The position numbers were made by a program, and so were the translations under genes. From assembly GCF_009914755.1 (NCBI RefSeq), contig NC_060941.1: 64,000 nucleotides of DNA; one strand, given 5' to 3'. The stretch is from the human T2T-CHM13v2.0 reference genome, Homo sapiens. Below, in pieces: positions 1 to 6,089 of the stretch (position 1 is its first letter; each line of letters starts with the position of its first letter). The notes beneath the pieces are model-generated. The model had not been told where the DNA came from. It worked only from the letters and a program-made list of their open reading frames with translations, and did no database searches.

Positions 1-288
1 AAAAAAAAAAAAAAAAAAAAAAATTGCTGAAGACTTGGCTTCCCTCCCCCATCTCACTGTGCCCCAGGAAAATTCCGTGGCAGTTAGGGGACCTGGCCTG
101 CTGAATGGGTTGGGGCCTTCTCTTGGATCAAGAGTCTCTTATTTGATCGAGGTCTGTTATTAGACTTCCTCATTCTTTCTCAGACCTCAGGCTGCATGGT
201 GGCAGCTGATGAAAATATCCAAAAGATGAGAAGAGACAATTGAGTCTGGTGAGGGAAAGGGGAGACAGAGGGTGAAGTGGTGCTCAAG

Positions 289-742
289 ATGGATGCAGAG
301 TACTCTGGGAATGAGTTCCCCAGGTCAGAAGGAGAAAGAGACCAACATCAGAGACCTGGAAAGGAAAGGAAGAGTGGGGAGGCAGGATGGGGCACAGGTG
401 AGCTGGGACAAGATGGGAGACTGCTGTCCTCCACCCTCTCCCTCAGTAGTAACAGGTCCTTGGGCCAGCGCCAGAACTCTCCGCTGCCCTTTCAATGGAG
501 AATCACACACAGCTTCCGCTGGATGGCCCAGGTGTTGGCCTCTGAGCTCAGCCTGGTTGCCTTTATCCTACTATTGGTCGTGGCCTTCTCCAAGAAATGG
601 CTGGACCTCTCTAGGAGCCTCTTCTACCAGCGCTGGCCCGTGGATGTCAGCAACAGAATCCACACATCAGCCCACGTTATGTCCATGGGGCTCCTGCACT
701 TTTACAAATCCAGGAGCTGTTCTGACTTAGAGAATGGGAAAG
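289..742 (+). CDS. ODF4: ODF4 coding exon 1 (outer dense fiber of sperm tails 4)
   Basis: ATG at 289 gives MDAEYSGNEFPRSEGERDQHQ...SDLENGK, recognised as the ODF4 N-terminus, with a hydrophobic helix (AQVLASELSLVAFILLLVVAF). Donor AAAG|GTGAGC after 742, phase 1. Confidence 0.95.
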
Positions 743-3990: not shown

Positions 3991-4485
<495 letters not shown>

Positions 4486-5109
4486 TAATTAGCAATTCTT
4501 TGTGTTGAGCTTTATATGTTTATCAGACATTTGTACTCCTTCTTTGGAGAATTGCAGTTTAAGTCCTCTGTACATTTTTTCTGTTGAGGTATTCATTTGC
4601 ATGTGGTTGAGGTTATCAAACAATATCCATATCAAGGATCTCGGATTGTTTAAGAAGTGAAAGCAATATTTCATTTTTATTTCAAATGTGCATTTCTCTG
4701 ATTATTAATGGGTCTGTACATTTTCTTTCTGTCTTTTTTGTTTTTTGTTTTTTGCAGGCGGCGTCTCGCTCTGTTGCCCAGGCTGGAGTGCAGTGGCTCA
4801 CCACAACCTCCGCTTCCCAGGTTCAAGCGATTCTCCTGCCTCAGCCTCCGGAGTAGCTGAGACTACAGGCATGCACCACCATGCCCAGCTAATTTTTGTA
4901 TTTTTAGTAGAGACGGGGTTTCGCTATGTTGGCCAGGCTGGTCTTGAACTCCTGACCTTGTGATCCACCTGCCTCGGCCTCCCAACGTGCTAGGATTACA
5001 GGCGTGAGTCACCGCGCCTGGCGGTACATTTTCTTGTATTTGCTCATTTGATTATGTTTCATCTTTTGTAAATCCTTAGTTGATCTTGTTTGTTTGTCAT
5101 TTTCCCCAG

Positions 5110-5279
5110 GCAGTTTTAAGCTGTGGACAATCAGCCCATGTTTAAGGTGGCTAAGTTAAGCTTCAACCTGACCCTGGGGCTGGGCCTCGTCCTCACCATC
5201 TGGTTGCACCTGCCCTACCTGCCCGCTGTTCAAAAATTGCCCTTTGTGGGCTTCGGGACCATCTTGAGCTTCTGTGAAG
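5110..5279 (+). pseudogene. ODF4: Frameshifted relic coding exon of ODF4 (pseudoexon)
   Basis: tttccccag acceptor, 170 nt, GAAG|GT donor. Reads GSFKLWT, then after a 1-nt slip at about 5129 NQPMFKVAKLSFNLTLGLGLVLTIWLHLPYLPAVQKLPFVGFGTILSFCE. Both ends are phase 1, like the flanking exons. Confidence 0.8.
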
Positions 5280-5579
5280 GTGCCTCCTAGCTCTGGAAAG
5301 GTCCTTTGTTTTCCTAACCCCCATCTTCCTGGGCACTTCTCCCTCTTCTTTGGGGGTGGTATGAGGGTTTTGTGGGTGGTGGGAGAACAGAACCGAGAAT
5401 CGAGTTACATCATTTCTTGGTCACAGGAGAGGTAGAAATGCAGGGGTTGACTCCTGGAACCTCAGGGCCAGTCACTCTGTGTGTGGTGATGTGGTTTGTG
5501 GCTGTAGCCTAGCAGATGAGGAAGAACCTCCTGTGGGACTCTTGTATGACAATGAGACCCTCTGCCTCCTGTCTCCTAG

Positions 5580-5714
5580 TCACCTTCATCTTCTCCACCC
5601 TCATGCTATTCCCCATTAACATCTGGATCTTCGAGTTGGAAAGGAATGTATCCATCCCCATAGGCTGGAGCTATTTCATTGGTTGGCTGGTGCTTATCCT
5701 ATACTTCACCTGCG
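5580..5714 (+). CDS. ODF4: ODF4 coding exon 2
   Basis: Acceptor tctcctag at 5579 and donor CG|GTGAGT. 135 nt, phase 1 to 1. Encodes (V)TFIFSTLMLFPINIWIFELERNVSIPIGWSYFIGWLVLILYFTC, including a claudin-like GWSY motif. Confidence 0.95.
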
Positions 5715-5904: not shown

Positions 5905-6089
5905 CGATCCTTTGCTACTTCAACCATAAAAGTTTCTGGAGTCTGATTCTGAGCCACCCCAGTGGTGCCGTGTCCTGCAGCAGCAGTTTCGGCTCAGTAG
6001 AAGAATCTCCAAGGGCACAGACGATCACAGACACCCCCATCACCCAGGAGGGAGTCCTGGATCCTGAGCAGAAGGATACACATGTGTAA
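5905..6089 (+). CDS. ODF4: ODF4 coding exon 3 (to stop)
   Basis: Polypyrimidine tract plus cccag acceptor. Encodes (A)ILCYFNHKSFW...QKDTHV-TAA. 454+135+185 = 774 nt = 257 aa. Confidence 0.95.

What the first reader, a model, noticed from the sequence alone, without database searches (positions are those of the whole stretch)
5110..5279. Fossil coding exon inside ODF4 intron 1: this ODF4 appears to have lost about 1.5 transmembrane helices
Seen: a non-repeat 170-nt block bounded by a good acceptor (tttccccag) and GAAG|GT, phase 1 at both ends like exons 1 and 2. It is exactly 1 nt short of in-frame. Restoring one A at ACA(A)AT gives a stop-free GSFKLWTNQPMFKVAKLSFNLTLGLGLVLTIWLHLPYLPAVQKLPFVGFGTILSFCE that runs into exon 2 (VTFIFSTLMLFP). 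That completes a four-helix PMP22/claudin-like layout ending in GWSY. As it stands, inclusion hits TAA 16 codons in, and the donor (GTGCCT) is weak. From memory, rodent Odf4 is longer and has a similar segment. Inference: after the frameshift, skipping rescued the frame, leaving a 3-helix protein with possibly flipped C-terminal topology. This would be a lineage-specific remodelling of a sperm membrane protein.
Basis: partly seen in the sequence, partly recalled or inferred. Interest (0 to 1): 0.82.

Follow-up and report, generated by a model that had tools for sequence, protein, structure and literature searches.

The report
Dead ODF4 exon in human intron
A stretch inside the first intron of the human sperm-tail gene ODF4 is the broken remnant of a coding exon that other mammals still use, so the human protein lacks one and a half of the four membrane helices of its claudin-like fold.

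Summary
Window 5110-5279 is a non-repeat, AG/GT-bounded, phase-1 block. Read in frame with ODF4 exon 1, it stops at a TAA after 16 codons. It is the orthologue of a 58-codon (174-nt) exon found between exons 1 and 2 in 71 of 126 mammalian ODF4 protein clusters. These include siamang, macaques, titi monkey and mouse lemur.

The human copy also has a 3-nt loss and a changed first codon, so it is 4 nt shorter than the ancestral exon.

The exon encodes the end of extracellular loop 1, TM2, the intracellular turn and the start of TM3. Forms that keep it match PMP22_Claudin (39 of 61), and the siamang one folds as four helices that resemble TARPs. The human-type short form has three hydrophobic segments and no confident fold.

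Exon-skipping isoforms are also annotated in species whose exon is intact. Skipping therefore probably predates the frameshift rather than rescuing it. The lesion postdates the gibbon split, but I could not date it more closely. Three of four human-only residues hit conserved columns, which hints at relaxed constraint. I found no paper describing the exon loss. This is a new case of a known kind of event.

The parts
289..742 (+). ODF4 exon 1 coding part: variable N-terminal tail, TM1 (about residues 82-100) and most of extracellular loop 1; ends in phase 1
   Evidence: Human-only residues Q62, V98, L111 and Y139 lie here.
395..403 (+). Alternative donor inside exon 1 (397|398), used by NM_001319953.2; also phase 1
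   Evidence: PWM score at the 89.5th percentile. The same donor is joined to the extra exon in Macaca thibetana isoform X7, P0045.
4662..5024 (-). Masked repeat with Alu-like (SRP-model) matches on the minus strand, ending about 86-88 nt before the block's acceptor
   Evidence: Any influence on splicing is speculation.
5090..5109 (+). Pyrimidine tract and AG acceptor of the dead exon
   Evidence: 76.5th percentile of 442 real acceptors, and rank 4 of 307 AG sites in intron 1.
5110..5279 (+). Dead copy of the ancestral second coding exon of ODF4 ('exon X', 58 codons in other mammals): end of ECL1, TM2, intracellular turn, first third of TM3
5130..5131 (+). Site of the 1-nt loss: two bases remain where orthologues have an Asn codon (LWT-N-QP)
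   Evidence: Placement is inferred from protein alignment only.
5157..5159 (+). TAA reached if the block is spliced to exon 1; it lies 120 nt before the block's 3' end
   Evidence: NMD is predicted from the 50-55-nt rule (established knowledge, not tested).
5252..5254 (+). Phe codon where the 23 aligned orthologues have two residues (for example Leu-Val or Leu-Ile): net 3-nt loss
5280..5285 (+). Weak donor GTGCCT of the dead exon
   Evidence: 18.7th percentile of 428 real GT donors, and rank 16 of 267 GT sites in intron 1.
5508..5579 (+). Upstream extension of exon 2 that macaque X1 and Papio X3 models translate; human has an in-frame TAG at 5510-5512
5580..5714 (+). ODF4 exon 2: rest of TM3, ECL2 with the conserved N-x-S sequon, TM4
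5905..6089 (+). ODF4 exon 3 coding part: C-terminal tail and stop

Best explanation
Window 5110-5279 is the disabled human copy of a constitutive-type coding exon of mammalian ODF4 (58 codons, 174 nt, phase 1 at both ends). In species that keep it, ODF4 is a four-helix membrane protein of the PMP22/claudin type. The exon supplies the end of extracellular loop 1, all of TM2, the short intracellular turn and the first third of TM3. On the lineage to humans, after the split from gibbons, the exon lost one base (frameshift, TAA 16 codons in) and three more bases, and its first codon changed. Its donor is weak today. Because the exon is symmetrical, transcripts that skip it stay in frame. Skip isoforms are annotated in several mammals whose exon is intact, so skipping was most probably an existing minor isoform. 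When the exon died, that isoform became the only productive one. Any transcript that still includes the block should be an NMD substrate. The human product (257 aa) keeps TM1, a shortened ECL1, an 18-residue remnant of TM3, and TM4. If all three segments span the membrane, the N- and C-termini lie on opposite sides, unlike in the ancestral form. Shown: orthology, lesions, absence from RefSeq mRNAs, claudin-type fold of the long form, three versus four hydrophobic segments. Inferred: order of events, NMD, topology, and whether the short protein still works.
For: Sequence and frames. Neither RefSeq mRNA uses the block, and it is not masked as a repeat. Orthology: aligned with 23 mammals, all with 58 codons, only the human row has a break and a one-codon gap. 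71 of 126 ODF4 clusters carry the full segment. Siamang P0063 hits the human genome at this place (E 7e-23, with stops inside) and otherwise convincingly only at the three annotated ODF4 coding exons. The exon is as conserved as the core exons in the 61 long forms. Fold: PMP22_Claudin is matched over nearly the whole model and above the curated cut-off in rat, guinea pig and gundi, and at E<=0.01 by 39 of 61 long forms against 5 of 44 short forms. The AlphaFold2 (AF2) model of the siamang long form has pLDDT 64.2 and pTM 0.50, with four long helices. Its best PDB fold matches are TARP gamma subunits (E 0.09, prob 0.99, TMt 0.56). The short form has pLDDT 48.3 and pTM 0.22, with three long helices (plus one short one), and gets 0 fold matches. 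Hydropathy gives four segments in long forms and three in human. Splice sites. Skip and exon-containing isoforms in the same species: names, classes.
Against: No DNA of other primates could be read here, so the lesions are placed from protein alignments alone. The timing within the 0-20 My since the gibbon split is open. Protein clusters are at 90% identity and their members cannot be listed, so a great-ape long form could be hidden in the siamang cluster (22 members). Many skip forms in other species may be projections of the human model rather than real transcripts. I recall, but did not check, that NCBI alternative isoforms need transcript support. No RNA data were available for human inclusion levels. 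The fold evidence is modest: Foldseek E-values are 0.09 or worse, siamang itself scores only 13.9 bits on PMP22_Claudin, and a profile of the long forms found no claudin in the PDB by sequence. The short model used bonobo P0001 as proxy, which differs from human at 5 of 257 residues.
Confidence: 0.85

Rival explanations
1. Human ODF4 as a whole is a decaying gene. Loss of the exon destroyed the claudin-like fold, and the remaining 257-aa reading frame is drifting without function. This overlaps with the best explanation and differs only on whether the short protein works.
For: Four residues of the human protein occur in none of 9 other anthropoid sequences. Three of them sit in columns at least 85% conserved among 96 non-primate sequences (M 93/96, R 91/96, C 85/96, the last being one of the two ECL1 cysteines). 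The 8 other catarrhines show 0 of 27 such unique residues (Fisher one-sided p 0.0009). The short form has no confident fold and no Pfam match for bonobo P0001 or the human exon pieces.
Against: The 257-aa frame is intact. Exon 2 is 100% identical between human and bonobo. Curated mRNAs exist. The counts are small. The three residues may be alleles of this assembly rather than fixed. Half of the short forms (22 of 44) still match the first part of Claudin_2.
Confidence: 0.3
2. The exon was constitutive, the frameshift came first, and skipping (through donor weakening) was then selected because it restored the frame.
For: The donor is weak today (18.7th percentile). Skipping does restore the frame.
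Against: Skip isoforms are annotated beside exon-containing ones in Talpa, Tupaia, Tamandua, Thomomys and Macaca thibetana. There are 46 skip clusters across many orders. A frameshifted constitutive exon would first give a null allele, which is hard to fix if the gene matters as it does in mice (PMC9941515, abstract and passages).
Confidence: 0.2
3. The block is still used: either as a poison exon that tunes ODF4 mRNA through NMD, or to make a truncated protein of about 167 aa (TM1, ECL1 and a 16-codon tail).
For: The acceptor is strong (76.5th percentile). The donor is within the range of real donors. The stop lies 120 nt before the next junction.
Against: No RefSeq transcript includes the block. 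No RNA data were available. Nothing indicates selection on the block since it broke: it has two deletions and one replacement against the siamang and macaque sequence.
Confidence: 0.1
4. The lesion is a variant of this assembly and not fixed in humans.
For: Only one human genome was readable here.
Against: RefSeq's curated mRNAs skip the block. PMC9941515 cites the human cDNA as encoding 257 aa, the skip length. No exon-containing cluster carries a human or other great-ape name among 33 clusters or 120 listed.
Confidence: 0.05
5. It is a chance open frame in an intron with no coding ancestry.
For: A 49-codon open frame alone is not rare.
Against: Homology at E 7e-23 at the exact exon boundaries and phase, and 48-94% identity to 71 clusters.
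Confidence: 0.01

Closest known systems
Mouse/rat ODF4 (OPPO1), 290/291 aa, four coding exons
   Same: Orthologous gene. Exon 1, exon 2 and exon 3 align. The rodent extra exon aligns residue for residue with the human block. PMC9941515 (passages read) gives mouse as 290 aa and 4 exons, and human as 257 aa.
   Different: Rodents translate the exon and have four hydrophobic segments. Rat scores above the PMP22_Claudin cut-off (27.5 vs 26.7) and Mus spicilegus just below it (26.4). Human cannot translate the exon. Mouse knockout males are infertile (PMC9941515), and nothing comparable is known to me for human.
PMP22/EMP/MP20/claudin superfamily, including TARP gamma subunits (best PDB fold matches) and TMEM225
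   Same: The long ODF4 forms have four helices and a long first loop. Pfam matches to PF00822, PF13903 and PF25452, TARP gamma-2/3/5/8 as top fold hits, and claudin-type neighbours in the Atlas at 0.88-0.91 all agree.
   Different: All matches are weak. ECL1 was modelled as helices at low confidence, not the claudin beta-sheet. The loop motif reads GLL, not GLW. The literature I saw treats ODF4 as an outer-dense-fibre protein and does not use the word 'transmembrane'. The human form lacks TM2.
Lineage-specific exon death with in-frame skipping (pseudoexonisation of a symmetrical cassette exon), a known kind of event (recalled; no specific paper read)
   Same: An ancestral coding exon carries disabling indels, is left out of all annotated mRNAs, and the shorter frame persists.
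   Different: Here the exon encodes buried transmembrane helices of a four-helix bundle, so skipping changes the helix count from even to odd rather than trimming a loop or a repeat.
Human CMAH exon loss (recalled from memory, not checked here)
   Same: Loss of a coding exon on the human lineage in a gene that is intact in other primates.
   Different: As I recall, CMAH lost the exon by an Alu-mediated deletion that shifts the frame and kills the enzyme. In ODF4 the exon is still present as a fossil and the skipped mRNA stays in frame.

Membership tests
Fossil (dead) exon of ODF4 | Orthologous, at the same intron position and phase, to a translated exon of other species | tested here: met
   The boundaries ...ENGK|(split codon) and ...SFCE|V match.
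Fossil (dead) exon of ODF4 | Carries lesions that prevent in-frame translation | tested here: met
   1-nt loss and TAA after 16 codons. Also a 3-nt loss.
Fossil (dead) exon of ODF4 | Not part of the species' mature coding transcripts | tested here: inconclusive
   Absent from both RefSeq mRNAs. No RNA-seq could be examined.
Fossil (dead) exon of ODF4 | Lesion fixed in the species and datable on the phylogeny | not testable with these tools
   No other human or ape DNA was available. The exon is intact in siamang, macaques, titi and mouse lemur proteins.
PMP22/EMP/MP20/claudin superfamily (ancestral long ODF4) | Pfam PF00822 match at or above the curated cut-off (26.7 bits) over the whole model | tested here: met
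   Rat 27.5, guinea pig 34.6 and gundi 28.6 bits, covering model positions 11-160 of 161. Mus spicilegus 26.4 and siamang 13.9 fall below. 39 of 61 long forms match at E<=0.01.
PMP22/EMP/MP20/claudin superfamily (ancestral long ODF4) | Four transmembrane helices | tested here: met
   Four hydrophobic segments. AF2 helices at 68-100, 161-188, 196-231 and 239-271.
PMP22/EMP/MP20/claudin superfamily (ancestral long ODF4) | Fold similar to solved members | tested here: inconclusive
   TARP gamma chains top the list, but with E 0.09-0.4 and TMt about 0.5-0.57. The profile search of PDB sequences found none.
PMP22/EMP/MP20/claudin superfamily (ancestral long ODF4) | ECL1 signature W...GLW...C...C (motif recalled from memory) | tested here: inconclusive
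   W104 and G134 are invariant, followed by GLL and then C-x4-C in most species. This is a partial fit.
PMP22/EMP/MP20/claudin superfamily (present human 257-aa ODF4) | Four transmembrane helices and a full-length family match | tested here: not met
   Three hydrophobic segments. No Pfam claudin match for the human exon pieces or bonobo P0001. The first ECL1 Cys is Tyr in the window.
NMD-coupled poison exon | Regulated inclusion that introduces a premature stop | not testable with these tools
   The stop and its distance fit. Inclusion is unknown.

The most novel reading that the evidence does not exclude
The exon died only on the human branch, after the split from chimpanzee and bonobo, and the rest of the claudin-like core has drifted since. 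Three of four human-only residues hit columns conserved across mammals, one of them an ECL1 cysteine, while bonobo keeps all three ancestral residues. On this reading, a gene required for male fertility in mice is being dismantled specifically in humans, or turned into a three-span protein whose C-terminal half sits inverted in the membrane. More broadly, ODF4 would exist in mammals in two architectures, four-span and three-span, through an old in-frame skip, and one of them has been lost in humans.
Probability: 0.25. Interest if true: 0.7.

Novelty: new member of a known kind. Interest (0 to 1): 0.45.

Why it matters
Odf4-null male mice are infertile, with hairpin flagella (PMC9941515, abstract and passages read). 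That result is carried over to human infertility genetics as if the two proteins were equivalent. They are not. The human protein lacks TM2 and the start of TM3 of a four-helix fold, so its membrane topology and partners may differ, or it may have little function left. This affects how ODF4 variants in infertile men are interpreted, the use of ODF4 as a cancer/testis antigen, and the choice of model species, since macaque keeps the exon. It is also a clean natural case for asking what happens to a claudin-type bundle when one and a half helices are removed in frame.

Tried and rejected
Chance ORF: rejected by homology.

Repeat-derived block: rejected. The masked repeats end at 5024, and the Rfam SRP/Alu-like hits end at 5022.

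RNA gene or minus-strand gene in the block: Rfam gave no hit in 5110-5279. There are only short ORFs on either strand, and the longest plus-strand one is the exon frame itself.

Paralogue or retrocopy elsewhere in the genome: none. Apart from the four ODF4-locus places, the 7 other matches have E of 0.15 or more.

Dating through great-ape proteins did not work. Three protein searches showed no cluster named for a great ape that carries the exon. Clusters are at 90% identity, their members cannot be listed, and the FASTA headers carry no names, so this says little.

PDB search by sequence with a profile of the long forms gave only STING at E 2.1, which I take as chance.

Fold search with the short model gave 0 hits, but that model has low confidence, so the blank is weak evidence.

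Atlas searches show claudin-type neighbours for both the long form (0.88-0.91) and the short form (0.86-0.89). These are leads only and do not separate the two.

Literature. ODF4+claudin gave 3 unrelated papers. ODF4/OPPO1 gave 106 papers, 25 listed. ODF4+transmembrane gave 31, 20 listed. ODF4+exon gave 31, 25 listed. By title and abstract start, none deals with ODF4 exon loss. One search was badly framed (any 2 of 6 terms) and returned nothing on ODF4. The two cloning papers (PubMed 12728016 and 12079992) are not held, so I could not see whether the missing segment was noted in 2003. Supplements were not consulted. PMC12203886 and PMC10875271 mention ODF4 only in passing.

A positive-inside count for the topology was considered and not run. 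The loop charges looked too balanced to decide.

Full report
**The observation.**
- A pyrimidine-rich acceptor ends at 5109. The block is 170 nt (5110-5279), followed by GTGCCT.
- Exon 1 coding is 454 nt and exon 2 is 135 nt, so both known junctions are phase 1, and the block would be entered and left in phase 1.
- Read in the frame of exon 1, the block gives a Gly split codon, 15 further codons, then TAA at 5157-5159.
- The frame one base over, 5132-5278, is open for 49 codons.
- The block is not masked as a repeat; the nearest masked stretch ends at 5024.
- Neither RefSeq ODF4 mRNA uses it.
- I built position-weight matrices from 428 GT donors and 442 AG acceptors of 'select' mRNAs. They came from 20 gene-dense 10-kb stretches of chromosome 17 plus the window, with ODF4's own sites left out. 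The block's acceptor lies at the 76.5th percentile of real acceptors and its donor at the 18.7th percentile of real donors. The donor is weak but not dead.

**What the block is.**
- A search with exon 1 (151 aa) could only see proteins up to 264 aa and returned mostly short ODF4 forms. Three of the 18 sequences I fetched (clouded leopard, Damaraland mole-rat, two-toed sloth) carried an extra segment between ...ENGK and VTFIF... that matches the block.
- A second search with the leopard protein found 135 proteins, 120 of them listed. They included long forms from most mammalian orders and from primates: siamang X1 (315 aa), rhesus X1 (326 aa), titi (297 aa) and mouse lemur X1 (320 aa).
- I classified all 126 stored clusters by BLASTP against the human 49-codon frame:

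| Class | Clusters |
|---|---|
| Full segment present (48-94% identity, mean 64%) | 71 |
| Part of the segment | 4 |
| Exon 1 joined directly to exon 2 | 46 |
| Skips the segment but has another insert | 1 |
| No segment; lack the exon-1 tail or exon 2 | 4 |

- In an alignment with 23 mammals, every orthologue has 58 codons with no gap. Only the human row has a break (at the Asn of LWT-N-QP) and a one-codon gap (GLVG/GLIG in the other primates, GFG in human). The first, split codon is Asp in 18 of the 23 and Gly in human.
- The ancestral exon was therefore 174 nt. The human copy has lost 1 + 3 nt.
- The siamang long form, searched against the whole human genome, matches four places convincingly, all in the ODF4 locus. 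The block region scores E 7e-23 with stops inside, and the other 7 matches have E of 0.15 or more. There is no paralogue or retrocopy.

**What the exon encodes.**
- In the 61 long forms the exon is as conserved as the neighbouring core. The mean share of sequences carrying each column's commonest residue is 0.77, against 0.73 for the TM1/ECL1 part of exon 1 and 0.83 for exon 2. Five columns are invariant, among them W183, L184 and L186 of the WLHLPYLP motif.
- Kyte-Doolittle windows give four hydrophobic segments in siamang and mouse-type proteins, and three in the human protein.
- The exon supplies the end of the first extracellular loop, the second helix, a short turn and the first third of the third helix.

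**Family placement.**

| Test | Forms with the exon | Short (skip) forms |
|---|---|---|
| PMP22_Claudin, E<=0.01 | 39 of 61 | 5 of 44 |
| TM225-like, E<=0.01 | 31 of 61 | 1 of 44 |
| Claudin_2, E<=0.01 | 16 of 61 | 22 of 44 (model positions 1-60 in the mouse-lemur example) |
| AF2 mean pLDDT / pTM | 64.2 / 0.50 (siamang) | 48.3 / 0.22 (bonobo proxy) |
| Long helices in the model | 4 | 3 (plus one short helix, 125-132) |
| PDB fold matches at E<=10 | at least 500, led by TARPs | 0 |

- Long forms match PMP22_Claudin over nearly the whole model. Rat (27.5 bits), guinea pig (34.6) and gundi (28.6) are above the curated cut-off of 26.7. Mus spicilegus (26.4) and siamang (13.9) are below it.
- Bonobo P0001 and the human exon pieces match no claudin family.
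- The four helices in the siamang model are 68-100, 161-188, 196-231 and 239-271, with block-mean pLDDT of 73-87 over most of them.
- The best PDB fold matches are TARP gamma-2/3/5/8, which belong to the claudin superfamily. They are weak: E 0.09-0.4, prob up to 0.99, TMt about 0.5-0.57.
- A sequence profile of the long forms finds no claudin in the PDB.
- Atlas neighbours are claudin-type for both the long and short forms. These are leads only.
- My reading is that ancestral ODF4 is a divergent member of the PMP22/claudin superfamily, and that the present human protein no longer meets the family's four-helix definition.

**How it most likely came about.**
- The exon is symmetrical, so skipping keeps the frame.
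- Skip isoforms are annotated next to exon-containing ones in the same species and annotation: Talpa X1/X2, Tupaia X3/X2, Tamandua X4/X3, Thomomys isoforms 1/2 and Macaca thibetana X7/X8. Skip forms occur in 46 clusters from many orders.
- I therefore think skipping is an old, probably minor, splice variant. The death of the exon left it as the only productive mRNA. The alternative order, frameshift first and rescue by skipping later, is less likely.
- Caveat: some skip models may be projections of the human protein. I recall, but did not verify, that NCBI's alternative isoforms require transcript support.
- Any human transcript that still includes the block would carry a stop 120 nt before the next junction. 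By the 50-55-nt rule it should be degraded (inference).

**Timing.** Siamang, macaques, titi and mouse lemur have the exon intact at the protein level. By parsimony the lesions arose after the split from gibbons. No cluster named for a great ape carries the exon. Cluster members cannot be listed, and the bonobo short form may be a projection, so the date within that interval is open.

**Consequence for the protein.** The human product keeps TM1, a shortened loop, an 18-residue remnant of TM3 at the hydropathy threshold (1.64), and TM4. If all three span the membrane, the two termini must lie on opposite sides. The ECL2 loop, with its conserved N-x-S sequon (invariant in the 44 short forms), would then face the cytoplasm. 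If the remnant does not insert, a two-span form with both termini inside is possible. Neither alternative was tested.

**A sign of relaxed constraint.**
- The human protein has four residues seen in none of 9 other anthropoid sequences: Q62, V98, L111 and Y139.
- Three of them lie in columns at least 85% conserved among 96 non-primate sequences: M 93/96, R 91/96 and C 85/96. The Cys is one of the two ECL1 cysteines.
- The eight other catarrhines together have 0 of 27 lineage-unique residues in such columns. With columns that could not be scored dropped, the figure is 0 of 19.
- The one-sided Fisher p is 0.0009 for the first count and 0.002 for the second.
- Bonobo keeps all three ancestral residues.
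- This fits drift of the claudin-like core on the human branch. The residues may also be alleles of this assembly, and the numbers are small.

**Literature.**
- PMC9941515 (abstract and passages read) states that mouse ODF4 has 290 aa from 4 exons and human has 257 aa. It reports that Odf4-null males are infertile, and it does not use the word 'transmembrane'.
- Searches for ODF4 with claudin, transmembrane, exon and OPPO1 listed no paper on this exon loss.
- The two cloning papers are not held, so an early remark there cannot be excluded.

**Verdict.** Two corrections apply: there is a second deletion, and the order of events is probably reversed. It is a new instance of a known kind of event, the death of a lineage-specific exon with in-frame skipping. 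It is of moderate interest because it removes buried helices from a protein that is essential for fertility in mice.

Noticed in passing
window 289-742 (residues 62, 98, 111, 139 of the encoded protein): Four residues of the human ODF4 protein occur in none of 9 other anthropoid sequences. Three of them replace residues at least 85% conserved among 96 non-primate sequences, including one of the two ECL1 cysteines. Eight other catarrhines have 0 of 27 such changes. This may reflect relaxed constraint or alleles of this assembly.
   Followed up: partly
window 5508-5579: The upstream extension of exon 2 that rhesus X1 (P0088) and Papio X3 (P0114) models translate as a 24-residue insert has an in-frame TAG at 5510-5512 in human.
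   Followed up: partly
window 4126-5022, minus strand: Sub-threshold SRP-RNA and mir-1268 model matches indicate antisense Alu elements. The last one ends about 88 nt before the dead exon's acceptor. Any effect on exon definition is speculation.
   Followed up: no
P0104, P0106, P0107 (Mastomys X3, Mus caroli X3, rat X5): These murid isoform models contain only the last ~34 residues of the extra exon, as if an internal acceptor were used.
   Followed up: no
P0062 (Trichechus inunguis), P0008 (Balaenoptera ricei), P0017 (Camelus ferus), P0113 (Carlito syrichta): These ODF4 models are flagged 'LOW QUALITY PROTEIN' by their source. Several lineages (lorises, Lemur catta, Saimiri, elephant, aardvark, shrews) are represented only by skip forms. 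The exon might have been damaged or lost more than once in mammals.
   Followed up: no
window 395-403: The alternative donor inside exon 1 (NM_001319953.2) is as strong as the main one (89.5th versus 88.6th percentile). The protein it yields lacks TM1 and ECL1; orangutan and macaque models of this type are 142 aa.
   Followed up: no
window 1-33: A poly-A run at the window start is the end of a masked repeat that begins upstream of the window.
   Followed up: no
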